A DNA stretch of 64,000 nucleotides from Anolis carolinensis. Its lineage: Eukaryota. Location: the NCBI RefSeq assembly GCF_035594765.1, contig NW_026943818.1, positions 35,719,129 through 35,783,128 on the forward strand, given 5' to 3'. Under the pieces are notes generated by a model. The model was not told the origin of the DNA, searched no databases, and saw only the letters and a list, made by a program, of their open reading frames with translations. Shown one piece after another: positions 28,101-64,000 of the stretch. The translations under genes and the position numbers were made by a program. Each line of letters begins with the position of its first letter. Positions within the stretch are counted from its first letter, which is position 1.

Positions 28101-31100
28101 ATGCTGTGCGCCGGCAGCCGTTCTTCGATCTGCGATGTCAGCAATGTGAGTGGCACCCTCATTGTTATGATTTCCAGCTGCTGTCCCAACGATTGATGCT
28201 CTCTAGCTGATGTCCCAATGAGCATAACTTCTATCAAAGCACACTGATGCTCTCTAGCTGATGTCCCAATGAGCATAACTTCTATCAATACACACTGATG
28301 CTCTCTAGCTGATGTCCCAATGAACATAACTTCTATCAATGCACACTGATGCTCTCTAGCTGATGTCCCAATGAGCATAACTTCTATCAAAGCACACTGA
28401 TGCTCTCTAGCTGATGTCCCAATGAGCATAACTTCTATCAATACACACTGATGCTCTCTAGCTGATGTCCCAATGAGCATAACTTCTATCAATGCACACT
28501 GATGCTCTCTAGCTGATGTCCCAATGAGCATAACTTCTATCAATACACACTGATGCTCTCTAGCTGATGTCCCAATGAACATAACTTCTATCAATGCACA
28601 CTAATGCTCTCTAGCTGATGTCCCAATGAGCATAACTTCTATCAAAGCACACTGATGCTCTCTAGCTGATGTCCCAATGAGCATAACTTCTATCAATACA
28701 CACTGATGCTCTCTAGCTGATGTCCCAATGAGCATAACTTCTATCAATGCACACTGATGCTCTCTAGCTGATGTCCCAATGAGCATAACTTCTATCAATG
28801 CACACTGATACTCTCTAGCTGATGTCCCAATGAGCATAACTTCTATCAATGCACACTGATGCTCTCTAGCTGATGTCCCAATGAGCATAACTTCTATCAA
28901 TACACACTGATGCTCTCTAGCTGATGTCCCAATGAGCATAACTTCTATCAATGCACACTGATGCTCTCTGGCTGATGTCCCAATGAGCATAACTTCTATC
29001 AATACACACTGATGCTCTCTAGCTGATGTCCCAATGAGCATAACTTCTATCAATGCACACTGATGCTCTCTGGCTGATGTCCCAATGAGCATAACTTCTA
29101 TCAATGCACACTGATGCTCTCTAGCTGATGTCCCAATGAGCATAACTTCTATCAATGCACACTGATGCTCTCTGGCTGATGTCCCAATGAGCATAACTTC
29201 TATCAATGCACACTGATGCTCTCTGGCTGATGTCCCAATGAGCATAACTTCTATCAATGCACACTGATGCTCTCTAGCTGATGTCCCAATGAGCATAACT
29301 TCTACCAATGCACACTGATGCTCTCTAGCTGATGTCCCAATGAGCATAACTTCTATCAATACACACTGATGCTCTCTAGCTGATGTCCCAATGAGCATAA
29401 CTTCTATCAATGCACACTGATGCTCTCTAGCTGATGTCCCAATGAGCATAACTTCTATCAATGCACACTGATGCTCTCTGGCTGATGTCCCAATGAGCAT
29501 AACTTCTATCAATGCACACTGATGCTCTCTAGCTGATGTCCCAATGAGCATAACTTCTATCAATGCACACTGATGCTCTCTAGCTGATGTCCCAATGAGC
29601 ATAACTTCTATCAATGCACACTGATGCTCTCTAGCTGATGTCCCAATGAGCATAACTTCTATCAATGCACACTGATGCTCTCTAGCTGATGTCCCAATGA
29701 GCATAACTTCTATCAATACACACTGATGCTCTCTAGCTGATGTCCCAATGAGCATAACTTCTATCAATGCACACTGATGCTCTCTAGCTGATGTCCCAAT
29801 GAGCATAACTTCTATCAATACACACTGATGCTCTCTGGCTGATGTCCCAATGAGCATAACTTCTATCAATACACACTGATGCTCTCTAGCTGATGTCCCA
29901 ATGAGCATAACTTCTATCAATGCACACTGATGCTCTCTGGCTGATGTCCCAATGAGCATAACTTCTATCAATGCACACTGATGCTCTCTAGCTGATGTCC
30001 CAATGAGCATAACTTCTATCAATACACACTGATGCTCTCTAGCTGATGTCCCAATGAGCATAACTTCTATCAATACACACTGATGCTCTCTAGCTGATGT
30101 CCCAATGAGCATAACTTCTATCAATGCACACTGATGCTCTCTAGCTGATGTCCCAATGAGCATAACTTCTATCAATACACACTGATGCTCTCTAGCTGAT
30201 GTCCCAATGAGCATAACTTCTATCAATACACACTGATGCTCTCTAGCTGATGTCCCAATGAGCATAACTTCTATCAATGCACACTGATGCTCTCTAGCTG
30301 ATGTCCCAATGAGCATAACTTCTATCAATACACACTGATGCTCTCTAGCTGATGTCCCAATGAGCATAACTTCTATCAATGCACACTGATGCTCTCTAGC
30401 TGATGTCCCAATGAGCATAACTTCTATCAATACACACTGATGCTCTCTAGCTGATGTCCCAATGAGCATAACTTCTATCAATACACACTGATGCTCTCTA
30501 GCTGATGTCCCAATGAGCATAACTTCTATCAATGCACACTGATGCTCTCTAGCTGATGTCCCAATGAGCATAACTTCTATCAATACACACTGATGCTCTC
30601 TAGCTGATGTCCCAATGAGCATAACTTCTATCAATGCACACTGATGCTCTCTAGCTGATGTCCCAATGAGCATAACTTCTATCAATGCACACTGATGCTC
30701 TCTGGCTGATGTCCCAATGAGCATAACTTCTATCAATGCACACTGATGCTCTCTGGCTGATGTCCCAATGAGCATAACTTCTATCAATGCACACTGATGC
30801 TCTCTGGCTGATGTCCCAATGAGCATAACTTCTATCAATACACACCGATGCTCTCTGGCTGATGTCCCAATGAGCATAACTTCTATCAATGCACACTGAT
30901 GCTCTCTGGCTGATGTCCCAATGAGCATAACTTCTATCAATACACACTGATGCTCTCTGGCTGATGTCCCAATGAGCATAACTTCTATCAATACACACTG
31001 ATGCTCTCTGGCTGATGTCCCAATGAGCATAACTTCTATCAATGCACACTGATGCTCTCTGGCTGATGTCCCAATGAGCATAACTTCTATCAATGCACAC

Positions 31101-34100
31101 TGATGCTCTCTGGCTGATGTCCCAATGAGCATAACTTCTATCAATACACACTGATGCTCTCTAGCTGATGTCCCAATGAGCATAACTTCTATCAATACAC
31201 ACGGATGCTCTCTAGCTGATGTCCCAATGAGCATAACTTCTATCAATGCACACTGATGCTCTCTAGCTGATGTCCCAATGAGCATAACTTCTATCAATGC
31301 ACACTGATGCTCTCTAGCTGATGTCCCAATGAGCATAACTTCTATCAATGCACACTGATGCTCTCTAGCTGATGTCCCAATGAGCATAACTTCTATCAAT
31401 GCACACTGATGCTCTCTGGCTGATGTCCCAATGAGCATAACTTCTATCAATGCACACTGATGCTCTCTGGCTGATGTCCCAATGAGCATAACTTCTATCA
31501 ATGCACACTGATGCTCTCCGGCTGATGTCCCAATGAGCATAACTTCTATCAATGCACACTGATGCTCTCTGGCTGATGTCCCAATGAGCATAACTTCTAT
31601 CAATGCACACTGATGCTCTCTGGCTGATGTCCCAATGAGCATAACTTCTATCAATGCACATTGATGCTCTCTAGCTGATGTCCCAATGAGCATAACTTCT
31701 ATCAATGCACACTGATGCTCTCTGGCTGATGTCCCAATGAGCATAACTTCTATCAATGCACACTGATGCTCTCTGGCTGATGTCCCAATGAGCATAACTT
31801 CTATCAATGCACACTGATGCTCTCTAGCTGATGTCCCAATGAGCATAACTTCTATCAATGCACACTGATGCTCTCTGGCTGATGTCCCAATGAGCATAAC
31901 TTCTATCAATGCACACTGATGCTCTCTAGCTGATGTCCCAATGAGCATAACTTCTATCAATGCACACTGATGCTCTCTGGCTGATGTCCCAATGAGCATA
32001 ACTTCTATCAATGCACACTGATGCTCTCTAGCTGATGTCCCAATGAGCATAACTTCTATCAATGCACACTGATGCTCTCTGGCTGATGTCCCAATGAGCA
32101 TAACTTCTATCAATGCACACTGATGCTCTCTGGCTGATGTCCCAATGAGCATAACTTCTATCAATGCACACTGATGCTCTCTAGCTGATGTCCCAATGAG
32201 CATAACTTCTATCAATGCACACTGATGCTCTCTAGCTGATGTCCCAATGAGCATAACTTCTATCAATGCACACTGATGCTCTCTGGCTGATGTCCCAATG
32301 AGCATAACTTCTATCAATGCACACTGATGCTCTCTGGCTGATGTCCCAATGAGCATAACTTCTATCAATGCACACTGATGCTCTCTGGCTGATGTCCCAA
32401 TGAGCATAACTTCTATCAATGCACACTGATGCTCTCTAGCTGATGTCCCAATGAGCATAACTTCTATCAATGCACACTGATGCTCTCTGGCTGATGTCCC
32501 AATGAGCATAACTTCTATCAATGCACACTGATGCTCTCTAGCTGATGTCCCAATGAGCATAACTTCTATCAATGCACACTGATGCTCTCTAGCTGATGTC
32601 CCAATGAGCATAACTTCTATCAATGCACACTGATGCTCTCTGGCTGATGTCCCAATGAGCATAACTTCTATCAATGCACACTGATGCTCTCTAGCTGATG
32701 TCCCAATGAGCATAACTTCTATCAATGCACACTGATGCTCTCTGGCTGATGTCCCAATGAGCATAACTTCTATCAATGCACACTGATGCTCTCTGGCTGA
32801 TGTCCCAATGAGCATAACTTCTATCAATGCACACTGATGCTCTCTAGCTGATGTCCCAATGAGCATAACTTCTATCAATGCACACTGATGCTCTCTGGCT
32901 GATGTCCCAATGAGCATCTGTTCTATCAATGCGCGTTGATGCTCTCTAGCTGATGTCCCAATGAGCATCTGTTCTATCAATGCGCGTTGATGCTCTCTAG
33001 CTGAGGTCCCAATGGGCATAACTTCTATCAATACACATTGATGCTCTCTAGCTGAGGTCCCAATGAACATAACTTCTATCAATACACATTTATGCTCTCT
33101 AGCTGATGTCCCAATGGGCATAACTTCTATCAATGCACACTGATGCTCTCTAGCTGATGTCCCAATGAACATAACTTCTATCAATACACATTGATGCTCT
33201 CTAGCTGAGGCCCCAATGGGCATAACTTCTATCAATGCACACTGATGCTCTCTAGCTGATGTCCCAATGAGCATAACTTCTATCAATGCACACTGATGCT
33301 CTCTAGCTGATGTCCCAATGAGCATAACTTCTATCAATGCACACTGATGCTCTCTAGCTGATGTCCCAATGAACATAACTTCTATCAGTGCACACTGATG
33401 CTCTCTAGCTGATGTCCCAATGAGCATAACTTCTATCAATACACACTGATGCTCTCTGGCTGATGTCCCAATGAGCATAACTTCTATCAATGCGCGTTGA
33501 TGCTCTCTAGCTGTGGTCCCAATGAGCATAACTTCTATCAATACACACTGATGCTCTCTAGCTGATGTCCCAATGAGCATAACTTCTATCAGTGCACACT
33601 GATGCTCTCTAGCTGAGGTCCCAATGAACATAACTTCTATCAATGCACACTGATGCTCTCTAGCTGAGGTCCCAATGAACATAACTTCTATCAATGCACA
33701 CTGATGCTCTCTAGCTGAGGTCCCAATGAACATAACTTCTATCAATGCACACAGATGCTCTCTAGCTACTGTCCCAATGAGCATCAGTTCTATCAATGCG
33801 CGTTGATGCTCTCTAGCTGTGGTCCCAATGAACGTAACTTCTATCAATGCACACTGATGCTCTCTAGCTGAGGTCCCAATGAACATCAGTTCTCTCAATG
33901 CGCACTGATGCTCCTTGGCTGCGGTCCAAATGAAATGTTCATTGATGCTCTCTTGCTGATGCCTCAATGGGCCTCCGTTCCTCAATGCGCACTGGTGACG
34001 TTCCCTCTCGCTCCTCCTTCCTTTGCAGGGCGATTCCGGGAGTGCCATGGTGTGCAACGGAGCGGCACATGGCATCGTCTCCTACGGCTTCCAGGTCCCC

Positions 34101-43500: not shown

Positions 43501-46323
43501 GCGAGGCAGGGCAAGGCTTGAAGCTTGATCTGGGAAGCAAGGAACTGGGGTACGAAGTCCACACACGATCTCTCTCCTGAAGGTGATCAATTGACTCCCT
43601 CGCGCCAAACACCTATATTGGGTCTCGTTTTCCCGCCAACAGAACTCTTTCCCTAGAGAACGAGAAGCGAAACCCAACTCTGTCCAGATGTGTGACTCCT
43701 TAGAATTTCCCAAGGGAAGCAGGCCTAATCAGCTTGATGTTTGGCAGCTATGCGTAAACTCCTCCGTTGGGCTTCTCTGACTCCCCTTTCTCTAGAATAA
43801 GATTCCTTCCTGGGAAACGGAGGGGAGTTCTGCCCAAGGCCTGTTTGGCTGAATTCTTGAGGGCAAACATCAACATCCTGCAGGTGAAGGGACTCCGGCT
43901 CTTGCTGAACCGGCGAAAACCCCATGTTTTCCTCTTCGTCTGCCACAATAGTACTAGGAACAGGACTACAAGGCCCATGAGTCATCACAGTTATACTAAA
44001 TTTCTTTTGACCAGAAGCTGGCCACTTGGAATGCCTCTGGTGTTGTGCATGCGGCAGGGCTCAGACCGCATGATAGTCAGTGGTCTGTGGTTTGCTCTTC
44101 TCTACACTTGTATTTCATAAGACTCCACTTTGTAGTTACATTTCGTAAGGGTTAGTTCTGCATCTCGTGGTGCCAGAGCGCACTATGTTCAGCACCTTCC
44201 GAGTCGCCCCGTCTCAGTCACTGATTGAGGTTTCGGGTTTTAGCCTGCCACTTTTGGAATCCCGCTTGCTGAGGTGTTCCTGCGAGTATCTCTGTAGATC
44301 GTAGGAAGATGTTTCTTGATTTGGTGTTATGGTTTGAACTTCGCGCTGTTGCTCTGAACCAGGGGTCCTCAAACTTTTTAAGTGGAGGGCCGATTCACAG
44401 TCCCTCGGACTGCTGGGGGGGCGGACTATGATGAAATAGTCCAAAATTAGGATTGTTGTTGTTGTCTTCAAGCCAGGGAAATGACCTTGGAGGGCCTTAG
44501 TTTGGAGACCCCTGATTTGGATGATCTCATAACAGCATAGGTAAGCAAAGAGACCTCCAAAGACCATCTAGATGGTCTCATAAGACCATAGGTAAGGAAA
44601 GGGACCCTCAAAGGCCATCTAGATGATCTCATAAGGCCATCAGAAGACCATAGGTAAGGAAGGGGGCCCTCAAAGGCCATCTAGATGGTCTCGTAAGGTT
44701 ATCAGAAGACCATCGGTAAGGAAAGGGACCCTCAAAGGCCATCTAGATGGTCTCATAAGACCATCAGTAAGGAAAGGGACCCTCAAAGGCCATCTGGATG
44801 GTCTCATAAGACCATTGGTAAGGAAAGAGACCCTCAAAGGCCATCTAGATGGTCTTATAGGACCATCGGTAAGGAAAGGGACCCTCAAAGCCCATCTAGA
44901 CGGTCTCATAGGACCATAGGTAAGGAAAGTGACCTCCAAAAGCCATTTAGATGGTCTCATAAGGCCATCAGAAGACCATAGATAAGAAAAGGGACCCTCA
45001 AAGGCCATCTGGATGGTTTCATAAGACCATAGATAAGGAAAGGGATCTCAAAGGCCATCTAGACGGTCTCATAGGACCATAGGTAAGGAAAGGGACCTCC
45101 AAAAGCCATCTAGATGGTCTCATAAGGCCATCGTTAAGCAAGGAGACCTTCAAAGACCATGTATATGATCTCATAAGGCCATCAGAAGACCATAGATAAG
45201 GAAAGGGACCCTCAAAGGCCATTTGGATGGTTTCATAAGACCATAGATAAGGAAAGGAACCTCAAAGGCCATCTGGACGGTCTCATAGGACCATAGGTAA
45301 GGAAAGTGACCTCCAAAAGCCATCTAGATGGTCTTATATGAACTCACTGGGTGTCTTTAGGCAAGTTCCACTATCTCATCCTCAGAGGAAGACAAAGGCA
45401 AACCTGTTTTGAATGCATCTTGAAAAGAAAACTGTGTGGGAGGGTTGCCTGAGTCTGAAAAGACTTGAAGGCAACACAACAACATCAAACTGTGGTTCGG
45501 TCTCCCAAAAGTCCAAGGGACCCTGCCTTAAACGCTGTCCTCTTTCCCTTTTTCCCAGCTGGAGTTCAAACCCGTCCTAAACAAATACGTCCAAATTGTG
45601 CCTTTGCCAAAGTCTGGCAGCGATCTCCCTGCCGGCACCTCCTGCAACATCGCCGGCTGGGGCCTGATTGACGAAGGCAGAACCACTCCCAGGCTCTTTG
45701 AGACCGACGTCAACATCTACAGTCGCAGGAAGTGCCGCATGGTCTACCCCTGGCTGGACGACGGGATGATCTGTGCGGGGAGCCACAAGCAGCTCCTGGA
45801 CACAAGCCAGGTAAGCAGCGAGGGGGATCCAGACACGGGAGACCTGAACTGAATTGGCTCTTTTCGCTGCCACATGGCACTGGTGGGACTTGCCTAAAGC
45901 CACCCAGTGAGTTCAGAGCAGGGGTCCCCAAACTATGGCCCGTGGGCCGGATGTGGCCCTCCAAGGTCATTGACCTGGCCCCTGTCCTAAACTTTAGACT
46001 TCGGGTTCACCTAATTCTACCTGGTCTTTGAAGGCCTCTTTGCTTAGCTACGGCCTTATGAGATTGTCTAGATCAGGGGTCCCCAAACTAAGGCCCGGGC
46101 ATCGAAGCCATTTATCTGGCCCCCACGGCACAAGGGCAGAAGGGGGTTGGGCTAAATGACCCAAGGGGTCTCTTCTTCTCTTACAACCATTATTATTATT
46201 ATTATTATTATTATTAACATTGAGGCTGGGTGGACATCTGTCAGGGGCAATACTAATGGCTTTTGGTGCACAAAGGCAGAAGGGGATTGGACTCAATGGC
46301 CCAAGGGGTCTCTTCCAACCATC

Positions 46324-46380
<57 letters not shown>

Positions 46381-46486
46381 ATTGAGGCTGGATGGCCATC
46401 TGTCAGGGATGCTTTGCTTGTGCTTTCAGTGCACAAAGGCAGAAAGGGATTGGACTCAATGGCCCAAGGGGTCTCTTCCAACCCTC

Positions 46487-46534
<48 letters not shown>

Positions 46535-46640
46535 ATTGAGGCTGGGTGGACATCTGTCAGGGATGCTTTGCTTGTGCTTTCAGTGCACAAAGGCAGAAAG
46601 GGATTGGACTCAATGGCCCAAGGGGTCTCTTCCAACCCTC

Positions 46641-46688
<48 letters not shown>

Positions 46689-46794
46689 ATTGAGGCTGGG
46701 TGGACATCTGTCAGGGATGCTTTGCTTGTGCTTTCAGTGCACAAAGGCAGAAAGGGATTGGACTCAATGGCCCAAGGGGTCTCTTCCAACCCTC

Positions 46795-46834
<40 letters not shown>

Positions 46835-46942
46835 ACATTGAGGCTGGGTGGCCATCTGTCAGGGATGCTTTGCTTGTGCTTTCAGTGCACAAAGGCAGAA
46901 AGGGATTGGACTCAATGGCCCAAAGGGTCTCTTCCAACCCTC

Positions 46943-46986
<44 letters not shown>

Positions 46987-47760
46987 AATAATAATTGCTC
47001 GGTGGCCAACTATAGTCCGGCCCTCCAACGGTCCGAAGGATCATGAACTGGCCCCCTGTTTTAAAAGTTTGGGGACCCCTGGTCTAGATGGTCTTTGAAG
47101 GCCTATTTGCTTAGCTACGGCCTTATGAGACCATCTAGATGGCTTTTGGAGGTCACTTTCCTAACCTATGGTACTATGAGATCATCTAGATGGGCTTTTG
47201 AGGGTCCCTTTCCTTATCTAATGTTTTATGAAACCATCCAGATGGCGTTTGAGGGTTCCTTTCCTTACCTATGGTCTTCTGATGGCCTTATGAGATCATC
47301 TAGATGGTCTTTGAGGGTCCCTTTCCTTATCTGTGGTCTTCTGATGGCCTTATGAGACCATCGAGATGGCCTTTGAGGGTCCCTTTCCTTACCAATGGTC
47401 TTATGAAACCATCCCCAAACTTACCTATGGTCTTAATATCTATGGGGAGAGTGGGCTGGGCTACCTCCTAAAGGTGTCTAAAAAGATTTGGCTCATGTTC
47501 AGCTTGTGCTCTACTGAGATCCCATTGAGTTGAAAACTTTCTCCTATGTTTTTGTGATAGACCCAATTAGGAAATGACCTTTCTAGGAACGAAAATCACG
47601 TTTGAATTTAACTTTGCAGGGAGACTCCGGAGGCCCAATGGTCTGCAACGGCGTGGTACATGGCGTCGTGTCCTTTGGCTACGACGCCCCGCCCGGGGTT
47701 TACGCTCGCATTGCGCATTTCCTGCCTTGGATCCAGAAGGTCATGGAGTCGAATCCTTGA
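40490..47760 (+). CDS. Serine protease C, close paralog of A (S1A), 5 exons, about 245 aa
   Basis: Exons 40490-40550, 40668-40815, 42856-42991, 45559-45810, 47620-47760. The catalytic triad is intact ([18 protein letters not shown]). AATAAA signals near 48249 and 48269. Confidence 0.92.
40668..40815 (+). CDS. Protease C exon 2
   Basis: [49 protein letters not shown]. Confidence 0.92.
41086..42356 (-). mobile_element. 5'-truncated L1 fragment (ORF2 C-terminal Cys-rich domain) in intron 2 of protease C
   Basis: [18 protein letters not shown] zinc knuckle, T-rich tail, and an imperfect TSD tatatattytttgtt at about 41071 and 42357. Confidence 0.75.
42540..42650 (-). mobile_element. CR1 LINE endonuclease fragment
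   Basis: [29 protein letters not shown]. Confidence 0.6.
42856..42991 (+). CDS. Protease C exon 3
   Basis: [45 protein letters not shown]. Confidence 0.92.
43135..43989 (-). mobile_element. Solo LTR (855 bp) in intron 3 of protease C
   Basis: TG...CA termini, 5-bp TSD GTTAT and a minus-strand AATAAA near 43200. Confidence 0.8.
43995..44358 (-). mobile_element. Decayed Vingi/RTE-like LINE 3' fragment
   Basis: Frameshifted minus-strand translation [17 protein letters not shown]...EEQTTDH. Confidence 0.5.
44515..45340. repeat. CATCTAGATG-core array, reverse orientation (intron 3 of protease C)
   Basis: Reverse complement of the same unit family. Confidence 0.85.
45559..45810 (+). CDS. Protease C exon 4
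   Basis: [17 protein letters not shown]...[15 protein letters not shown]. Confidence 0.92.
46190..46995 (+). repeat. About 154-bp tandem (5 copies) of a CR1-like 3' end plus (TTA)n, inside an hAT MITE in intron 4 of protease C
   Basis: Unit aacattgaggctgggtggacatctgtcagggatg...tcttccaaccctct(tta)n. Confidence 0.75.
47081..47430. repeat. CATCTAGATG-core array (intron 4 of protease C)
   Basis: Same unit family. Confidence 0.8.
47620..47760 (+). CDS. Protease C exon 5
   Basis: [46 protein letters not shown]. Confidence 0.92.
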
Positions 47761-49272: not shown

Positions 49273-51297
49273 GCCGCCCTATCCTTTCAGGTCTTCATCT
49301 GCAGGGAAGATGATGTCACAAAAAGTCAGGTGAGCAAAGAGGACTGACTCGCAGCTAGAACCCATCAGTCTGGATCCTTGAGAGGACCAGAGAGGAGTAA
49401 GCATCCCTTTTCTCCTGTGTTTTCAGGTTCTTCCGAGTGTCTTCTTTGCTCTCCTTGACTTTTCCTGTCTCTACTATTCATATTGAGTGGTACCAGCAAA
49501 ATGTTGAATGTCCATGCCATCTTTAGGGCAGTGGCTCCCAAACTTATTTAGCCTACTGCCCCCTTTCCAGAAAAAATATTACTCAGTGCCCCCTGGAAAG
49601 GGGCGTGGCTTAGAGGGGTGGGTGTGGCACCTGCTCAAGAGGGCGGGGCTGAGCCTCTCCCCTAGTCCAAGATGCAGGGCTGGGAGGGGGAGGTGGGCTG
49701 GGAGGGGGAGGTGGGCGGGGCCACAAATGGGAGGCCGGGACTGGGATGGGCGGAGTTACAAGCTTTGAGGCAGGGCTGAGCTTCTATCCCTGTCCTGCGG
49801 CGCCTGCCAGGACACAGGGGGCGGGGCCTCTTCCCAAGTGCCTGACGGGGCTGAACCTCTATACCCCGCCCCCATGTTCTAACAAGCGCCTCAGGGGAGG
49901 TATAGAGGCTCAGCCCTGTCTCGGGCTCTTGGAAGGAGGCCCCACCCCCTTCCCTAGCTCCGCCCTCTGTGTCCTAACAGGCACCTCAGGAGAGGTATAG
50001 ATTCTCAGCCCTGTCTCCGACACTTGGGAAGAGGCCACGCCCCTCCCTGGCCCCGCCCCCATCTCCTAATAGGTACCATCACCACATTTCTTGGCATTAA
50101 ATGTTGCCAACTGTTGTAAGCCGCCTTGAGTCCCCCAGGTGAGAAGGGCGGGGTATAAATGCTGGAAATAAATAAATAATAAAATTACTAATAAAATTAA
50201 AACTACCCCCCCCTCCGGATTCCCACTTTGGGAATCCCTGTTTTAGGGCATGGCCAATAATCCATGAAGATTAGGTCACTACTGATTTACCCAGTTCCCC
50301 TTGATTCAATGGGTCTAAGTCAGCAATAGGATTGGGAGCAAAAGGCAAATCAGGGGTAAGGACGTTCCTCCAGATGTTGTTGGACTACAACTCCCAGTAT
50401 GACTCACCATTGGTGATGCTGGTTGGGGCTGCTGGGAGCTGAAGTTAGAGTTGCCTCGTGTGCTATATTCCAGGTTAGCTGGGTATCCGTAACCAGAATT
50501 CCAAAATCTGAAATAATAATTATTAAGAATAATATTTTTAGTATTTTATTTTGGGTCTCCTTTGGTAGGGGAAATCAGGATATTATTAATATTATGTTGT
50601 TGAAGGCTTTCATGACCAGAATCACTGCGTTGCTGTGAGTCTTCCGGGCTGTCTGGCCATATTCCAGAGGCATTCTCTCCTGACGTTTTGCCAGCATCTA
50701 TGGCAGGCATGCTCAGAGGTTGTGAGGTCTATTGGAAACTAGGCAAGTGGGGTTTATAGATCTGTGGAATGATGTCCGGGGTGATTCAGACCATGAAAGC
50801 CTTCGACAACACAAAGTAGACTTGGGTAGAATAACATATTTGGTTTACTCACGACCTTCATGTGTTCAGCATACACAGGTACATAACTTATCCGTTAGTT
50901 ACAGATACAGTAGAGTCTCACTTATCCAACATAAATGGGCTGGCAGAATGTTGGATTAGTGAATATGTTGGATAATAAGGAGAGATTAAGAAAAAGCCTA
51001 TTAAACATCAAAATAGGTTATGATTTTACAAATTAAGCACCAAAACATCATGTTATACAACAAATTTGACAGAAAAAGTAGTTCATTACACATTAATGCT
51101 ATGTAGTAATTACTGTATTTATGAATTTAGCACTAAAATACCATGATATATTGAAAACATTGACTACAAAAATGTGTTGGATAATCCAGAACGTTGGATA
51201 AGTGAGACTCTACTGTATGTTTGAGATATGTTTCTGTGCCATCTGGACATACAGGCCCGAAGACTAACAGCAACACAATGATTCTGGCAATCAAAGC

Positions 51298-54676: not shown

Positions 54677-54686
54677 TACAGTAGAG

Positions 54687-54989
54687 TGTCAGAACCCTGC
54701 TACTAGAGCCTGGATGTGGCTCTGAGTTTCAGGGTCACTGACATTGATAAGACACCTGCGTCCCAGGACTCGGAGGAGAAACGGCTGATGGACTTGGCGG
54801 GGAATTTGCGCGGGGTTTTACTGAGCGGGAAGAGACTGTTCAAATGAGGGGGAGGGTATATAAAGGAGGGTTGGCCGGAGCCTCCCATTCTTGGCTTTTC
54901 TGATGTTCATGTTTCCTACAGTAAAAGTTCCTGGTGATACCACAGAGAGTCTCGTGTGTTCATTCAGGAGCGGCTGTGGTGAGCTGACA
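54687..54989 (+). repeat. 5' LTR (TATA at 54857-54864; AGTAAA polyA-like signal)
   Basis: Direct repeat of 59701-60003 with TG...CA termini. Confidence 0.97.
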
Positions 54990-55037
54990 CTAAGCCAAGA
55001 ATACGGACACCATCCCGCTGTAGCGGTGAGGTGTAAC

Positions 55038-58000
55038 ATGCAAGTGGAGGATGAAGAGCTCTTGGGCGCCGGAGGAGGAAGGTCGGAAAGGGCCACTCCC
55101 GAGACGGACGCTGAGTTCCACCAGCTGGCGGCCCTGGCGTCATCCACCGCTTATGCCCAGCCAAATGGGGTAACCCAGAGGCGCGGAGTGGTGCGGGGAG
55201 ATAGCACCGGAGGAGAGGAAGGTTCACCTTCCCCAGGCCCGCAAAAGATGGTGTTTCTGGAGGAGAGGATGTCGGCGATGGAGACCACCCTGGCAGTGAT
55301 GTCGAGGGCGATGGAGCGCCTGGCGGTTTTGGCGGAGCCGGAGCGAGGAAGGGAACTCCGGGCTAGCTCAATGTGGGACGTGAGCATGGGAAGCAGCCAG
55401 GGCTTTGCAGACCTCCCAGCACCGAAGGGAAGGGAAATGCGAAAGGAGCCCGGTGCCCGGCCCAAGATCCAAACGAGCCTGACGCGGGTGGAGGAGAGTG
55501 ACGACGAAGGGGAAAAGCCTCCGAGAATCCCGGCTACGCTCCCAACTGAGACCCTGGTGCCCCTGGCGAATGCCGGGCGTGGCACAGGACAAAGGGAAGC
55601 AGCAGCGGGGCCCACTGGCCCGCAAGGGGGCTTGCGACGGGCGGAGAATTGGGGATTGCCACCACAGGGACCCCTACCGAGACGAGAGGAACTAAGGATC
55701 GAGTTTGGGGGAGAGTCCTCTGAACTGGATTTTTTCCTGACCACGGTGAGGGGCTATATGGAGGACAATGCCCACACTTTTAGAACGGAATCCAGCCGGG
55801 TACGGGCCATTGGTGCAGTGTTGAAGAGGGGAGCGGCCAGCTGGTACGTTCAACTACACGCGCGGCGCGACCCATGTCTGGGGTCACTCCGACGCTTTAT
55901 GGGGGCCCTGGAGACCCGTTTCCGAGATCCACTGGAGCAGATCCGGGCGAGGGAGGAGTTGAAGACCGTCTCCCAGGGGCAGAGGTCGGTATCTGAGTAT
56001 GCGGAGGAGTTCCAATGCCTCGCTGAAAAGGTGCCGGAATGGTCTGCAGTGACAAAGATAGAACTCTTCAAAGAGGGGCTCAGGCGGGAGATCCTCTCCT
56101 GGGCGGTGCATCGTGATGAGCCTGACACACTGCGCGGATGGATTCAGCTGGCGGGGCGCATCGAGACATCGCTGGCCCAGGCGAGGAGGCACCGAGGAGG
56201 GCTACAGCAGCGGCCGCAGATGAAAGAGGGGAGCCGGAAGGAGGGATCAACCCCAGCCGGGAGGAGAACGGAGCCGACAGGGAACGTGAGCACCAGCAGG
56301 AGGGGCTGCTTCGTGTGCGGCCGTTTGGGCCACAGGGCTGCCGAGTGCTGGCAGAGAAAAGGGGAAGGCGGAGGCCCGCCCAAACCAAGAGCCGTGGCAG
56401 GGAAACGCGCCGAGGAAGAACCACCGATGAGGCACCACTCGGGGGGGTTGGTAAGTCAGGACAAAGCCATGATAGTGGTCCCCATTCAGCTGGAAAGTGG
56501 CAGCAAACAAGCAACCTGCAAAGCATTTGTGGATTGTGGATGTTCCAGGAACATCATCTCCCCTGAATTAGCCGAGGGATTGGGATGCGAAAGAACGAAC
56601 CTAGAATCCCCAATAGCTTTTTCGCAGTTGGACGGATCCACAGCATCGGGATCATTAGCTAAGTACAGTGCCGAAGATGTAAAGTGCAAGATAGGGAGTT
56701 GGGAAGGAAAGGTGTCATTTGTGATATCACAAATAGCCAGCTATAATGTTATACTAGGCATGCCATGGCTGGGGCAGGCCAACCCGCAAATCAACTGGGA
56801 GGATAAGAGCATGATCTTCAGGATGAAGTTGGAAGGAGGGAGCCAGGAAGTGGAAAGGGAGCCGGGGAAAAGGGGGGAGGAAGACTCTATCAGGATAGCA
56901 GAACTGGCAGATAAATTACCCCCAGAGTATCGGGATTTTGTGGACGTATTTGATGAGAAGGAAGCAGACAGTTTCCCACCGAAGCGGAGAGTTGAAGTGA
57001 AGATAGAGCTAGTCCCAGGAGCAGAGCTTCCTAAGGCAAAAATATACCCAATGTCGGCTAGGGAAAAGGAGGAACTGAGAAAATACATTGATAAAAACCT
57101 AGCGAGGGGTTTCATAGAGCCTTCAAATTCCCCTCTAGGGGCGCCTGTGTTGTTCAGGCGCAAAAAGGACCAAACGCTGAGGCTCTGCATTGACTACAGG
57201 GGCCTGAATGCAATCAGTTCTGGAAATAAATACCCCCTACCTTTAGTGAAGGACTTGATCGCCCAGTTATCGGAGGGACAGATATTCACTAAATTGGACT
57301 TAATTGAAGCGTACCATAAATTGCAGATTAAACCAGAGGACAGGTGGAAGACGGCCTTCTCCTGTGCATTCGGATTATTCAATTATCGTGTGCTCCCTTT
57401 CGGTTTGTGCGGCGGAGGCGCCGCGTTCATGCAATTAATCAACGAAGTGTTGCATCCATTGTTGTACAAGGGAGTCTTTGTTTTTTTAGATGACATATTG
57501 TTAGTATCTCGGACTAAGGAGCAACACATAGAACTAGTCAGGGAAGTCCTGCAAAAGTTGAGAGAAGCAAAACTGTATGCGAAGCTTGCCAAGTGCGAGT
57601 TCAATAAAGACCAGATAGACTTTCTGGGGTATAGGATTTCCTCCCAGGGAGTGGCGATGGACCCTGCGAAGGTAGAAGACGTGAGGGGGTGGGAAGCCCC
57701 CAAAACACGGAAGCAGCTGCAATCCTTCCTAGGGTTCGCAAACTTCTATAGAACATTTATCAAGGACTTTGCGCGCCTCACTTTGCCATTAACGGATTTG
57801 TTAAAGACTAAAGGTAGGGGAGAAACAGCCAAAGTGAAGGCCCCAGGGGCCAAACTGACCTGGACAATAGAATGCCAGGAAGCTTTCGAAGCCCTTAAAA
57901 AGCGTTTTACTGAGGAGCCTGTCCTACAGCACCCTGATATGTCTAAAGCCTTTGTATTACATTGCGATGCGTCAGACCGGGCATATGGGGCAGTTCTGCT

Positions 58001-59654
58001 ACAGAAAGACGAGGGGGGGAACCTGAAGCCATGTGGCTATCTGTCAAAAAAGTTTAGCGATACAGAAAAAAACTGGCCGATTTGGGAGAGAGAAGCCTTA
58101 GCGATTCTAAAAGCACTAGAGTGCTGGAGACACTTTCTGGAAGGAAGTGGAACACCGTTTGAGGTGTGGACTGACCATAGAAATTTACAGTATCTAAGAT
58201 CCCCTCGTAAACTATCAGCGAAGCAAATTAGATGGGCCCAATATTTCAGCCGTTTTGATTTCAGACTCAGATTCTTCCAGGGGAAACATAATATACTCGC
58301 TGACGCTCTCTCTCGGATGCCTCAGCACGGGGGAGGAATTCAGGAATCTGAAGGGAGTATTTTTCTTGATAAGCAATGGGGCCTGGCAGTACTAACTCGA
58401 GCACAAGCGGCCAAAGAAAACAAACGTACTGCCATTTCCACGGGGGGAGGAGAAATATGGGAGGAAGAGTTGAAGCGAGCGTATGGAATGGACAAATGGT
58501 TACAAACAAACAAAGAAAAGGGAGAATTGTGTGGGGATTTGGTGTTTGTAAATAAGAAATTGTATATTCCTGAATGTTTAAGACGAGAAATGTTAAGGAA
58601 GTACCATGATAACAAGGGTGCGGGTCATCTAGGCCCCACCAGGACTATTAAACTGTTGGCCAAACAATGCTGGTGGCCCGGAATGAGGAAAGACGCCAGG
58701 GGATACGTCACGCAGTGTGAATTATGTGCAGAGGGAAAAACACCACCGGGGAAGCCCCAGGGGCTATTGCAGAAGGTGGTGGAGCCCATGAGGCCATGGG
58801 AATGCGTAGCCATGGATTTTGTAGGCGAACTACCCCCCAGCAGAGGCCACAGATACATTTGGACAATATTGGACCTATTCTCAAAACAGGCACACTTTGT
58901 GGCCCTGCCAAAACTCCCTTCAGCTGAAAAACTTGCTGATTTGTATGTGAAGCATGTATATCGCCTACATGGGTGTCCCGACAAGATAATTAGTGACCGG
59001 GGAGTCCAATTTACTGCAAAATTTTGGGGAAAATTCTTACAGCTGTTAGGAGCAGAAAGGAACCTGAGCTCGGCCTTTCATCCCGCGACCAACGGGGGGG
59101 TCGAACGTACCCAACAGACACTGTGCCAATTCTTAAGGATGTACACCAATTATAGACAGGATGATTGGGCGGACCTTCTTCCGTTTGCTGAGATGGCTTT
59201 TAACGGGGCCGTACATTCGGCCACAGGTCGTGCCCCATTCGAAATAGTATACGGACAGGAGGTGGCACCTTTCCCCAGGCTACCCGAGTGGAAGGAAGGG
59301 GAGGGCCAGACCGACGAGGAATGGCCGGCCAAAATCAAGCAAGGGTGGCAAACCGTGGTAGAGGCATTGCGGGAAACACAAAAGAAGTACAAGCTCTTTG
59401 CGGATCGTAGGCGCCGAGAGGGGGACAAATTGGGCGAAGGAGATCTGGTTTGGCTGAGCACAAAAAACCTGAAATTGGGGTTCCCATCCAAGAAATTGGC
59501 TCCACGCTATATAGGGCCATTCAGGGTAGCAAAAAGAATAAACGAAGTGACCTATGAGCTGAGGCTACCAAAGGACCTAGGAAAGGTACACCCGGTATTC
59601 CATTGCAGCCTGTTAAAAAAGTATAAAGGAACTCTGGACAGCGGAGAACAATAG
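55038..59654 (+). CDS. Gag-Pol polyprotein (Gag, CCHC knuckle, aspartic protease, RT, RNase H, integrase) in a single ORF
   Basis: CFVCGRLGHRAAEC; FVDCGCS; LPFGL and FLDD; CDAS RNase H; HHCC zinc finger; MDFV/SDRG/NGGVE (DDE); GPF module. The start codon is taken as the first ATG after the PBS. Confidence 0.95.
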   Translation: MQVEDEELLGAGGGRSERATPETDAEFHQLAALASSTAYAQPNGVTQRRGVVRGDSTGGEEGSPSPGPQKMVFLEERMSAMETTLAVMSRAMERLAVLAEPERGRELRASSMWDVSMGSSQGFADLPAPKGREMRKEPGARPKIQTSLTRVEESDDEGEKPPRIPATLPTETLVPLANAGRGTGQREAAAGPTGPQGGLRRAENWGLPPQGPLPRREELRIEFGGESSELDFFLTTVRGYMEDNAHTFRTESSRVRAIGAVLKRGAASWYVQLHARRDPCLGSLRRFMGALETRFRDPLEQIRAREELKTVSQGQRSVSEYAEEFQCLAEKVPEWSAVTKIELFKEGLRREILSWAVHRDEPDTLRGWIQLAGRIETSLAQARRHRGGLQQRPQMKEGSRKEGSTPAGRRTEPTGNVSTSRRGCFVCGRLGHRAAECWQRKGEGGGPPKPRAVAGKRAEEEPPMRHHSGGLVSQDKAMIVVPIQLESGSKQATCKAFVDCGCSRNIISPELAEGLGCERTNLESPIAFSQLDGSTASGSLAKYSAEDVKCKIGSWEGKVSFVISQIASYNVILGMPWLGQANPQINWEDKSMIFRMKLEGGSQEVEREPGKRGEEDSIRIAELADKLPPEYRDFVDVFDEKEADSFPPKRRVEVKIELVPGAELPKAKIYPMSAREKEELRKYIDKNLARGFIEPSNSPLGAPVLFRRKKDQTLRLCIDYRGLNAISSGNKYPLPLVKDLIAQLSEGQIFTKLDLIEAYHKLQIKPEDRWKTAFSCAFGLFNYRVLPFGLCGGGAAFMQLINEVLHPLLYKGVFVFLDDILLVSRTKEQHIELVREVLQKLREAKLYAKLAKCEFNKDQIDFLGYRISSQGVAMDPAKVEDVRGWEAPKTRKQLQSFLGFANFYRTFIKDFARLTLPLTDLLKTKGRGETAKVKAPGAKLTWTIECQEAFEALKKRFTEEPVLQHPDMSKAFVLHCDASDRAYGAVLLQKDEGGNLKPCGYLSKKFSDTEKNWPIWEREALAILKALECWRHFLEGSGTPFEVWTDHRNLQYLRSPRKLSAKQIRWAQYFSRFDFRLRFFQGKHNILADALSRMPQHGGGIQESEGSIFLDKQWGLAVLTRAQAAKENKRTAISTGGGEIWEEELKRAYGMDKWLQTNKEKGELCGDLVFVNKKLYIPECLRREMLRKYHDNKGAGHLGPTRTIKLLAKQCWWPGMRKDARGYVTQCELCAEGKTPPGKPQGLLQKVVEPMRPWECVAMDFVGELPPSRGHRYIWTILDLFSKQAHFVALPKLPSAEKLADLYVKHVYRLHGCPDKIISDRGVQFTAKFWGKFLQLLGAERNLSSAFHPATNGGVERTQQTLCQFLRMYTNYRQDDWADLLPFAEMAFNGAVHSATGRAPFEIVYGQEVAPFPRLPEWKEGEGQTDEEWPAKIKQGWQTVVEALRETQKKYKLFADRRRREGDKLGEGDLVWLSTKNLKLGFPSKKLAPRYIGPFRVAKRINEVTYELRLPKDLGKVHPVFHCSLLKKYKGTLDSGEQ

Positions 59655-59700
59655 TTGTGTTTAATCTTTTCCTTCCAGGACGAAGGGGAGGAGGACGCCA

Positions 59701-60003
59701 TGTCAGAACCCTGCTACTAGAGCCTGGATGTGGCTCTGAGTTTCAGGGTCACTGACATTGATAAGACACCTGCGTCCCAGGACTCGGAGGAGAAACGGCT
59801 GATGGACTTGGCGGGGAATTTGCGCGGGGTTTTACTGAGCGGGAAGAGACTGTTCAAATGAGGGGGAGGGTATATAAAGGAGGGTTGGCCGGAGCCTCCC
59901 ATTCTTGGCTTTTCTGATGTTCATGTTTCCTACAGTAAAAGTTCCTGGTGATACCACAGAGAGTCTCGTGTGTTCATTCAGGAGCGGCTGTGGTGAGCTG
60001 ACA
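59701..60003 (+). repeat. 3' LTR
   Basis: Direct repeat of 54687-54989. Confidence 0.97.
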
Positions 60004-60462
60004 GTAGAGTCTCACTTATCCAACATAAACGGGCCGGCAGAAGCTTGGATAAGCGAATATCTTGGATAATAAGGAGGGAGTAAGGAAAAGCCTATTAAAC
60101 ATCAAATTAGGTTATGATTTTACAAATGAAGCACCAAAACATCATGTTATACAACAAATTTGACAGAAAAATCAGTTCAATACGCAGTAATGTTATGTTG
60201 TAATTACTGTATTTACGAATTTAGCACCAAAATATCATGATATATTGAAAACATTGACTAGAAAAATGGCTTGGATTATCCAGAGGCTTGGATAAGCGAG
60301 GCTTGGATAAGTGAGACTCTACTGTAATAAAGAGGGTTGGAAGAAACCCCATGGGCCATTTAGTCAAACCCTCTTCTGCCTTTGTGCACCAAACGCACAA
60401 GCAAAGCACCCCTGACAGATGGCCACCCACTCTCAATGTTAATAATAATAATAATAATAATG

Positions 60463-60496
<34 letters not shown>

Positions 60497-60626
60497 GGGT
60501 TGGAAGAGAAGAAGAGACCCTTTGGGTCATTTAGCCCAGCCCCCTTTTGCCCTTGTGCCGTGGGGGCCAGATAAATGGCTTCGATGGGCCGCATCCGGCC
60601 CCCGGGCCTTAGTTTGGGGACCCCTG

Positions 60627-62080
60627 ATCTAGATGGTCTCATAAAACCATGGGTAAGGATAGGGACGCTCAAAAGCCATCGGGATCATCTCATAAGACCA
60701 TCAGAAGACCACAGATAAGGAAAGGGACCCTCAAAGACCATCTGGATGGCTTCATAATACTATTGGTAAGGAAAGGGACTCTCAAAGGCCATCTAGATGA
60801 TCTCATCAGGCCATCAGAAGACCATAGATAAGGAAAGGGACCCTCAAAGACCATCTGGATGGTTTCATAAGACCATCAGTAAGGAAAGGGACTCTCAAAG
60901 GCCATCGAGATGATCTCATCAGGCCATCAGAAGACCATAGGTAAGGAAAGGGACCCTCAAAGGACATCTAGATGATCTCATAAAACCATCTGTAAGGAAA
61001 GGGACTTTTCAGACCATCTGGATGGTTTCATAAGACCATCAGTAAGGAAAGGGACTCTCAAAGACCATCGAGATGATCTCATCAGGCCATCAGAAGACCA
61101 TAGGTAAGGAAAGGGACCCTCAAAGGACATCTAGATGATCTCATAAAACCATCTGTAAGGAAAGGGACTTTTCAGACCATCTGGATGGTTTCATAAGACC
61201 ATCAGTAAGGAAAGGGACCCTCAAAGGCTATCTAGATGATCTCATAAGGCCATCAGAAGACCATAGGTAAGGAAAGGGACCCTCAAAGGACATCTAGATG
61301 ATCTCATAAAACCATCTGTAAGGAAAGGGACTTTTCAGACCATCTGGATGGTTTCATAAGACCATCAGTAAGGAAAGGGACTCTCAAAGGCCATCGAGAT
61401 GATCTCATCAGGCCATCAGAAGACCATAGGTAAGGAAAGGGACCCTCAAAGGACATCTAGATGATCTCATAAAACCATCTGTAAGGAAAGGGACTTTTCA
61501 GACCATCTGGATGGTTTCATAAGACCATCAGTAAGGAAAGGGACCCTCAAAGGCTATCTAGATGATCTCATAAGGCCATCAGAAGACCATAGGTAAGGAA
61601 AGGGACCCTCAAAGGACATCTAGATGATCTCATAAAACCATCTGTAAGGAAAGGGACTTTTCAGACCATCTGGATGGTTTCATAAGACCATCAGTAAGGA
61701 AAGGGACTCTCAAAGGCCATCGAGATGATCTCATCAGGCCATCAGAAGACCATAGGTAAGGAAAGGGACCCTCAAAGGACATCTAGATGATCTCATAAAA
61801 CCATCTGTAAGGAAAGGGACTTTTCAGACCATCTGGATGGTTTCATAAGACCATCAGTAAGGAAAGGGACTCTCAAAGGCCATCGAGATGATCTCATCAG
61901 GCCATCAGAAGACCATAGGTAAGGAAAGGGACCCTCAAAGACCATCTTGATGGTTTCATAAGACCATTGGTAAGGAAAGGGACTCTCAAAGGCCATCTAG
62001 ATAATCTCATCAGGCCATCAGAAGATCATAAATAAGGAAAGGGACCCTCAAAGGCCATCTAGATGGTTCATAAAACCATC
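60627..62080. repeat. CATCTAGATG-core array with higher-order periodicity, reverse orientation
   Basis: Same unit family, with recurring three-unit blocks of about 160 bp. Confidence 0.85.
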
Positions 62081-62399
62081 ACTCACAAACAGGTAAACTG
62101 TGACCTCCACCGATGATGGGCCCGGACCAAACTTGGCACCCAGAACCCCCATGACTAACTCAACCTACTGGAGAGGTTCAAGGAGACTGACTCACCATAG
62201 TGGGAGTTGTAGTTTACCCTGCAGCCGGAGAGCACACTAAACCCCACCAATGATGCATCCAGAGCAAACTTGCTCAACATCACAACAGAGCTATGGATTC
62301 CACCTAAACGTTAGACACTTGGGGTACGAACTGTGGGAGATGTGTGATAGAGTCTCATACTGTAAGAGGTTGGATGGCCATCTGTCGGGAAGGTTTGGA

Positions 62400-63119: not shown

Positions 63120-64000
63120 GTCACCTTCTACTGGGTTCACAGTTACCCAAATGTGACTGATTCTCAAGGCGTTGAAGCTGATGGGGATGCTGAGGTTGTT
63201 TTGCTAAAGGGCTACGGGAACTGTGTTTGGGTGGGTCCATCCTGCCCAAATTGTGGTTTTGTATTTTGCTTCAGTTTGGGGTGTGGCGCAATATCCCCTT
63301 CCTCTTGTTTTGCTTTTCTCGTTTTCATTTCTGCAAGGTAGGGCCACAAAAGTGCGCCGCAGGCAAACAACGTCGCATTTGCTGCCCGTCGAGGCAGGTG
63401 CGACACCGTTTCGTCCTTTCCTATGCTGCAGAGATTCGAGGAAGAACCTGGACTGTGTAAGTGAGTTCAGGTGGGACGGCCGGGAGCGGCTACACTGCAG
63501 ACTTAATGCAGTTTGACACCACTTTAACCTCCACGGCTCAATGCTATGAGATCCTGGGAGTTGTCTAGAGAAGAAAAGGCGGAAGACCTTTTTAAACTTT
63601 TCAAACTACCAGGATCCCATTGCATTGAAAGTGGTGTCAAACTTTTTGTATTTATATGGGAATTATTCTAATTTGAATTAGAATTTCCTTTGAATTTTCT
63701 CAGGAAATTCAGATTTACGTAATTATGGTGATATGATATGGAATTATTTTGCTTTGCTTTCTTTCTCTTCCAATTTCTATCTTTTCTGGTCTTGGACTGT
63801 AAGACAATTACAGTAGAGTCTCACTTATCCAACATAAACGGGCCGGCAGAATGTTGGATAAGTGAATATGTTGGACAATAAGGAGAGATTAAGGAAAAGC
63901 CTATTAAACATCAAATTAGGTTATGATTTTGCAAATTAAGCACCAAAACATCACGTTATACAACAAATTTGACAGAAAAAGTAGTTCATTACACAGTAAT

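What the first reader, a model, noticed from the sequence alone, without database searches (positions are those of the whole stretch)
54857..55002. tRNA-independent self-priming PBS (Tf1-type) in a young lizard Gypsy element
Seen: there is no TGG tRNA-type PBS after the 5' LTR. Instead AAGCCAAGAAT (54992-55002) is the exact reverse complement of ATTCTTGGCTT (54887-54897). That sequence starts 30 nt after the first T of the LTR TATATAAA (54857), the expected transcription start. Established: fission-yeast Tf1 primes reverse transcription with the first 11 nt of its own transcript, and the mechanism is proposed for the Tf1/sushi group. Inference: this is an intact, possibly active vertebrate model for self-priming.
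Basis: partly seen in the sequence, partly recalled or inferred. Interest (0 to 1): 0.7.

Follow-up and report, generated by a model that had tools for sequence, protein, structure and literature searches.

The report
Self-priming Gypsy retrotransposon in anole lizard
A young jumping gene with hundreds of copies in an anole lizard genome has no tRNA docking site; the 11 bases where DNA copying would start pair exactly with the predicted first 11 bases of its own RNA, seven related families keep such a pairing with different letters, so the group likely primes itself as yeast Tf1 does, a trick already predicted for this class of elements.

Summary
The element (54687-60003) has identical 303-bp LTRs and one unbroken gag-pol frame. 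Its relatives point to Anolis carolinensis, and 767 places carry the same LTR end plus PBS.

Self-priming is strongly supported. Eight families (RT 46-100% identical) each have a different 10-11-nt PBS two bases after the LTR, exactly complementary to their own LTR about 30 nt after a TATA-like box: 46 of 48 copies, against 0 of 6 TGG-PBS controls. Where the letters change, both partners change.

Two further footprints fit a capped 11-nt primer. Insertions and rearrangement junctions fall exactly after PBS base 11 (about 31 of 767, against 1 of 856 at a control site). The next base is C in 42 of 42 copies of the other seven families.

On an RT tree the element falls among vertebrate and fungal chromoviruses (Tf1/sushi-type), where self-priming is already inferred in print. 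The start site, cleavage and activity are not shown, and the flanking 'pretzel' duplexes did not beat shuffles. This scan noted the same trick in other genomes. Verdict: new member of a known kind.

The parts
54681..54686 (.). Target-site duplication GTAGAG, left copy (6 bp)
   Evidence: same six bases at 60004-60009
54687..54989 (+). 5' LTR, 303 bp, TGTCAG...CTGACA
   Evidence: identical to 59701-60003
54857..54864 (+). TATA box TATATAAA, first base 30 nt before the predicted start
   Evidence: top-ranked TATA-like octamer in the LTR
54884..54890 (+). Initiator-like context CCC-A(+1)-TTC; predicted transcription start 54887 (not mapped)
   Evidence: sequence; pyrimidine at -1 and purine at +1 in 11 of 11 representatives; Inr consensus recalled
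54887..54897 (+). Predicted 11-nt self-primer ATTCTTGGCTT (first bases of R)
   Evidence: exact complement of the PBS; covaries with the PBS across families
54898..54989 (+). Rest of R-U5, predicted long hairpin that brings primer and PBS together; holds the poly(A)-signal variant AGTAAA at 54920-54925
   Evidence: MFE -31.2 kcal/mol, z -3.29 against 100 shuffles
54990..54991 (+). 2-nt spacer between LTR end and PBS
   Evidence: same +2 register in all eight families
54992..55002 (+). Primer-binding site AAGCCAAGAAT, not tRNA-CCA type
   Evidence: 767 exact LTR-end+PBS places in the genome; variants and junctions gather at its 3' edge
55038..59654 (+). Single gag-pol frame (1538 aa): capsid, CCHC knuckle, protease, RT (FLDD), RNase H, integrase, Tf2-type SH3; no chromodomain, no env
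59682..59695 (+). Polypurine tract GAAGGGGAGGAGGA
59701..60003 (+). 3' LTR, identical to the 5' LTR
60004..60009 (.). Target-site duplication, right copy

Best explanation
This is a young Ty3/Gypsy retrotransposon of the chromovirus branch that has an 11-base primer site complementary to its own LTR instead of a tRNA site, and it likely starts reverse transcription with the first 11 bases of its own RNA, as Tf1 does. Steps: (1) Transcription is predicted to start at 54887, 30 nt after the TATA box (inferred from TATA spacing and initiator context in eight families). (2) The 116-nt leader is predicted to fold so that bases 1-11 pair with the PBS. (3) The element's RNase H would cut after base 11 (carried over from Tf1, not tested). 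(4) The released capped 11-mer would prime minus-strand DNA two bases from the LTR end. (5) Plus-strand strong-stop DNA would copy the 11-mer and stop there. That would rewrite the PBS from the primer, which explains the strict covariation, and would leave errors and mis-jumps at the PBS 3' edge, where they are seen. Shown: the complementarity, its covariation, the edge variants and the phylogenetic position. Inferred: start site, cleavage, priming and the cap.
For: (a) Exact 11-nt match, 1 of 5,000 shuffles at fixed register. (b) 46 of 48 refined copies with RT over 40% identical to the window have a complement of at least 10 nt in their own LTR at offset +2; 0 of 6 copies of the distant TGG-PBS families do. 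(c) Eight different primer/PBS pairs. Swapping PBS and LTR between families gives only 3-7 nt. A and B differ at primer positions 6 and 8, G and H at 5 and 6, A and C at five positions, A and D at six, always matched in the PBS. (d) A one-base variant inside family C occurs at 3 places, and 3 of 3 carry the matching change in the LTR. (e) The best TATA-like octamer of the whole LTR lies at -30 to -32 in 8 of 11 representatives (7 of 8 families). (f) PBS 3' edge: 31 of 767 copies have G at +5 or +6, the mark of a short insertion. Among 40 loci read there were inserted T or A, changes of the first base, a deletion running from PBS base 11 to element base 624 (L160), and an inversion junction starting right after base 11 (L166). 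A test for a change at the third base after the anchor gave 146 of 767 at the PBS edge (mostly one subfamily) and 1 of 856 at a control boundary 41 nt downstream. (g) The base after the PBS is C in 42 of 42 copies of the seven other families, as expected if RT copies or pairs with the cap G (recalled behaviour). (h) RT tree: inside a clade with chromodomain-bearing fish, amphibian and fungal elements (100/100), TGG families outside it. (i) Tf1 mechanism and its extension to the group: passages.
Against: The start site is not mapped, and no cleavage product or cDNA end was seen. The two duplexes flanking the PBS, part of the Tf1 'pretzel', do not beat shuffles in this family (fractions 0.14 and 0.40; U5-leader z -0.23, all eight families together z -1.55); only family E shows a clear U5-leader stem. 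The inner R-U5 hairpin is significant in A, B and C but not in D, E, F, G or H. Family E pairs over 10 nt, not 11, and one E representative has pair probabilities of only about 0.24. The TATA-like site is weak in family C (rank 8 and 11). In this family the base after the PBS is A, not C (4 of 4). Edge variants are partly inherited: 79 of the first 100 listed are one subfamily, and most T insertions share another change, so events are fewer than copies. Only one control boundary was tested. Two of 48 copies failed (L062, L066: rearranged or partial LTR calls).
Confidence: 0.92

Rival explanations
1. The primer is the same 11-mer but is not the capped 5' end cut in cis: it is cut from a transcript that starts further upstream, from the 3' R copy, or from the partner RNA in the particle.
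For: The same 11 bases stand in the 3' LTR, so sequence alone cannot tell which copy primes. The start site is unmapped. The flanking duplexes that position the cut in Tf1 are not demonstrable here.
Against: Complementarity ends exactly at a pyrimidine-purine step about 30 nt after the TATA-like box in the families tested. The constant C after the PBS in 42 of 42 copies of other families fits a capped end. The cis fold is the predicted minimum-energy structure.
Confidence: 0.05
2. The duplex has another job (closing the leader for packaging, translation or poly(A) control), and priming uses something else.
For: The leader folds into a long hairpin in families A-C, with the poly(A) signal inside it.
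Against: The duplex always starts two bases from the LTR end and is 10-11 nt long in LTRs of 240 to 1236 bp. Junctions and insertions sit at its 3' edge. No other primer site is present.
Confidence: 0.02
3. A tRNA 3' end or an internal tRNA fragment is the primer, and the LTR match is incidental.
For: Half-tRNA priming exists in some Ty1/copia lineages. The lizard's tRNA set was not scanned here.
Against: No TGG start. Eight unrelated PBS sequences each match their own LTR and not the others'. The within-family variant is compensated in 3 of 3 copies. The TGG families show no LTR match.
Confidence: 0.01

Closest known systems
Tf1 and Tf2 of Schizosaccharomyces pombe (self-priming shown by experiment); Tj1 and Tosmo1-3 (proposed)
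   Same: 11-nt PBS complementary to the first bases of R; single gag-pol frame; TGTCA...TGACA ends as given for Tosmo, Tj1 and Tcry1; similar size (passages).
   Different: No chromodomain. Target duplication mostly 6 bp and variable (11 of 18 six, 5 five, 2 four), against 5 bp reported for Tosmo and Tcry1. Flanking 'pretzel' duplexes not above chance here. Vertebrate host.
[quoted passage not shown] 2001 and Piskurek et al. on Anolis, both seen as titles only)
   Same: RT groups with chromodomain-bearing fish and amphibian elements; LTR ends fit the Sushi motifs TGTYANR...CNTNACA loosely; self-priming is already inferred for the group.
   Different: Families A and B form a derived squamate lineage with one frame instead of two overlapping frames, FLDD in place of YLDD, no chromodomain and a mostly 6-bp duplication. 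No named V-clade sequence was in the tree.
tRNA-type Gypsy families in the same genome (RT about 33% identical)
   Same: Same host and general LTR-gag-pol layout.
   Different: TGG 3-5 nt after the LTR, no LTR complement (0 of 6), outside the chromovirus clade. The tRNA was not identified.

Membership tests
Ty3/Gypsy LTR retrotransposon (Metaviridae) | TG...CA LTRs, target duplication, PPT, order gag-PR-RT-RH-IN | tested here: met
   best solved relative is Ty3 RT
Tf1/sushi group (fungal/vertebrate chromoviruses) | RT-RH phylogeny within the fungal/vertebrate chromovirus clade | tested here: met
   100/100 clade with fungal and chromodomain-bearing vertebrate rows. Tf1 and sushi-ichi themselves were not available as rows, so the group name rests on composition.
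Tf1/sushi group (fungal/vertebrate chromoviruses) | Chromodomain at the integrase C-terminus (usual, not universal) | tested here: not met
   absent in A, B, B2 (frame ends after the SH3 domain) and not found in G, H; present in D, E, F, weak in C. Loss inside the clade is the simplest reading; one search reports chromovirus-clade elements without one.
Tf1-type self-priming elements | No tRNA-type PBS; PBS complementary to an LTR stretch of about 11 nt | tested here: met
Tf1-type self-priming elements | The complementary stretch is the 5' end of the transcript | tested here: inconclusive
   TATA at -30 and initiator context agree; no mapped start was available
Tf1-type self-priming elements | Three-duplex 'pretzel': two further duplexes flanking the PBS | tested here: inconclusive
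   duplexes can be drawn but do not beat shuffles in family A; clear only in family E
Tf1-type self-priming elements | [quoted passage not shown] | not testable with these tools
   RNase H motifs present; edge footprints fit an 11-nt primer but are indirect
tRNA-primed LTR elements | PBS begins with TGG and matches a tRNA 3' end | tested here: not met
   a scan of tRNA fragments was not run

The most novel reading that the evidence does not exclude
The lizard genome records the self-priming reaction itself. Hundreds of recent copies show that plus-strand synthesis stops after exactly 11 primer bases, leaving insertions and mis-jumps there; the PBS is rewritten from the primer each cycle; and a C opposite the cap is fixed in seven families. 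This would be sequence-level proof of cis self-priming in a vertebrate. It sits in a derived squamate lineage that lost the chromodomain, fused gag and pol, changed YLDD to FLDD and cuts targets with a loose 4-6-bp stagger.
Probability: 0.6. Interest if true: 0.55.

Novelty: new member of a known kind. Interest (0 to 1): 0.4.

Why it matters
Self-priming has been shown by experiment in fission-yeast Tf1. The papers I could read describe it for vertebrates only as implicated or predicted. Here eight coexisting families give a natural covariation series, and one family is young and abundant enough (767 places) that primer length and cDNA ends can be read from native RNA and DNA. An element that needs no tRNA also lacks the site that tRNA fragments use to silence retroelements (abstract start; the consequence for these elements is my inference). 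The mechanism itself is not new.

Tried and rejected
Expression and start site: no RNA holder is on record. Eight runs guessed to be RNA were laid; all are contigs, which cannot show a start, strand or level, so nothing is drawn from them.

Retained primer at 3' ends: two pairs of PBS matches 5014 bp apart looked like a primer copy left behind a 3' LTR. Both are tandem elements sharing a middle LTR. Rejected.

One search's pattern was badly designed (it matched the common form); it served only as a count by subtraction and as a sample of 30 copies.

Flanking 'pretzel' duplexes: not above shuffles in family A.

Rows dropped: of 81 stretches (80 fetched, chosen by me for diversity, plus the window), 16 had no LTR pair and 11 more could not be refined to TG...CA ends, leaving 54. 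Two of 20 copies in the duplication tally had no 3' LTR at the expected place.

The 1826-codon frame at 28601-34081 is a 51-bp tandem array, not a second element.

Papers not held: Levin 1995, Lin and Levin 1997 and 1998, Esnault and Levin 2015, and the id tried for Atwood-Moore 2006. Repbase and Dfam were not available, so the family may already be named and annotated.

Full report
1. Observation. The 5' LTR is 54687-54989 and the 3' LTR 59701-60003. Both are 303 bp and identical, flanked by a 6-bp duplication GTAGAG. After the LTR come two bases (CT) and then AAGCCAAGAAT (54992-55002), the exact reverse complement of ATTCTTGGCTT (54887-54897), which starts 30 nt after TATATAAA. Shuffled LTRs reach 11 nt in 12 of 20,000 trials at free register and 1 of 5,000 at the fixed register. 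Folding the predicted leader pairs these two stretches with probabilities of 0.7-1.0.

2. The element. One frame from ATG 55038 to the stop at 59654 encodes capsid, CCHC knuckle, protease, RT, RNase H, integrase and a Tf2-type SH3 domain. It has no chromodomain and no env, and the catalytic motifs are in place. The nearest proteins are Anolis carolinensis UniRef entries at 96-98%. All 40 scored genomic matches are identical over 514 nt. In 18 of 20 copies checked the 3' LTR was where expected, and all 18 are identical to the window's LTR. The LTR end plus PBS occurs exactly at 767 places. The family is very young. Present activity is not shown.

3. Covariation. I fetched 80 stretches of 10 kb around diverse Gypsy hits. 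With the window that makes 81; 65 had an LTR pair and 54 could be refined to TG...CA ends. Of the 48 with RT over 40% identical to the window, 46 have a complement of at least 10 nt in their own LTR, starting two bases after the LTR end. The two failures have rearranged or partial LTR calls. The 46 fall into eight families with different primers: A ATTCTTGGCTT, B ATTCTCGACTT, C AGTAAAAGCTT, D ATTCAGTACAA, F AGTAGTGTTAT, E GCGGAGTCAA, G GCGTGTGGCAA, H GCGTTGGGCAA. A PBS tested against another family's LTR gives 3-7 nt. A one-base variant of C occurs at three places, and all three have the matching change in the LTR. Six copies of distant families with TGG after the LTR show no such match. The best TATA-like octamer of the whole LTR lies 30-32 nt before the primer in 8 of 11 representatives, and all 11 have a pyrimidine-purine step at the predicted start (weights and initiator rule recalled). 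Family C has only a weak TATA-like site.

4. Footprints of primer length. If plus-strand strong-stop DNA ends on the primer, errors should gather at the PBS 3' edge. Of 767 copies, 146 differ at the third base after the PBS; 79 of the first 100 listed are one subfamily. By subtraction, 31 of 767 have G at +5 or +6, the mark of a short insertion. Forty such loci were read. They include T inserted in at least three backgrounds, an extra A, an AT form, two first-base changes, one deletion from PBS base 11 to element base 624 (L160) and one inversion junction beginning right after base 11 (L166). The one search test at a boundary 41 nt downstream found 1 of 856. Limits: one control site, inherited events, and a CpG at the edge that explains the commonest substitutions. 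Separately, the base after the PBS is C in 42 of 42 copies of families B-H but A in family A. A cap-directed C would explain this; that RT behaviour is recalled, not tested.

5. Results against. Tf1 needs a three-duplex 'pretzel' (passage). In family A the two flanking duplexes can be drawn but do not beat shuffles (0.14 and 0.40), and across eight families the U5-leader stem gives a combined z of -1.55, clear only in E. The inner R-U5 hairpin is significant in A, B and C (z -2.4 to -3.3) but not in D-H. The start site could not be mapped.

6. Relationships. In a 42-row RT-RNase H tree (quick version), A and B form a 100/100 pair inside a 100/100 squamate clade. That clade lies in a 99/97 clade with families E, G, H and chromodomain-bearing fish and amphibian elements, and in a 100/100 clade with fungal elements. 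The TGG families group with arachnid elements outside. The root is a midpoint for drawing only, and Tf1 and sushi-ichi were not available as rows. Families A and B share four derived traits: one frame where C, D, E and H have two overlapping frames (the B2 copy has a stop inside the frame), FLDD, no chromodomain and a mostly 6-bp, variable duplication.

7. What is known. I read passages only of PMC7175516 (Tf1: first 11 bases pair with the PBS, RNase H cuts between bases 11 and 12), PMC4600332 (self-priming 'implicated' from fungi to vertebrates), PMC6317226 (described in the Tf1/Sushi group from yeast and vertebrates), bioRxiv 10.1101/2022.12.06.519325 (common feature of the group, pretzel structure), PMC3601003 and PMC2774666 (V-clade; cites a paper on a chromodomain Gypsy element of Anolis). 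PMC4340606 and PMC7472051 gave reference lines only. Butler 2001, Piskurek's Anolis paper and the Levin papers were seen as titles only and may already cover Anolis. Eight searches listed no paper that reports or tests self-priming in a lizard element; the library lacks most subscription journals, and no supplements were read. Earlier notes of this scan report the same signature in shark, ray, moss and other genomes; they are unchecked and were not used as evidence. None of the 8 notes shown for this genome (of 19 that fit) concerns it.

8. Verdict. Real and well supported: self-priming at about 0.92. It is the expected mechanism for the clade, so this is a new member of a known kind. The added value is the eight-family covariation series, the edge footprints that fit an 11-nt capped primer, and a derived lineage with an unusual integrase signature. 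Interest 0.4.

Noticed in passing
family A copies L001-L020 with L114-L133; family B copies: Target duplications are variable and mostly 6 bp (11 six, 5 five, 2 four of 18 scored; B mostly 6), while every duplication found in the other six families is 5 bp. This goes with loss of the chromodomain, a single gag-pol frame and FLDD in RT.
   Followed up: partly
base after the PBS in families B-H (L037-L107): Always C (42 of 42) although the PBS itself differs completely; possibly opposite the cap G. Family A has A there; one listed copy lacks that A and L168 has C.
   Followed up: partly
window 54903 and 54909: Two ATGs in R are in frame with gag-pol and no stop intervenes (frame open from 54864), so an N-terminal extension read through the PBS is possible.
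   Followed up: no
L164 and L165: Tandem elements sharing a middle LTR.
   Followed up: yes
L049, L065 against L091 and other family E copies: A U5-leader stem with a change on both sides (A-U to C-G) between subfamilies.
   Followed up: partly
L045, around the PBS: In family B the six bases shortly after the PBS can pair back on the PBS, and R holds a PBS-like stretch: possible alternative folds of the leader.
   Followed up: no
window 28192-33997: About 5.8 kb of a 51-bp tandem repeat that gives a 1826-codon open frame on the minus strand with no Pfam match.
   Followed up: partly
window 54677-54686 and 60004-60300: The element inserted near the end of another high-copy repeat, related to 50901-51206 and 63804-64000.
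   Followed up: no
window 45000-45350, 46000-47420, 60620-62125: Arrays of 51/62/163-bp units and of 154-bp units with ATT tracts.
   Followed up: no
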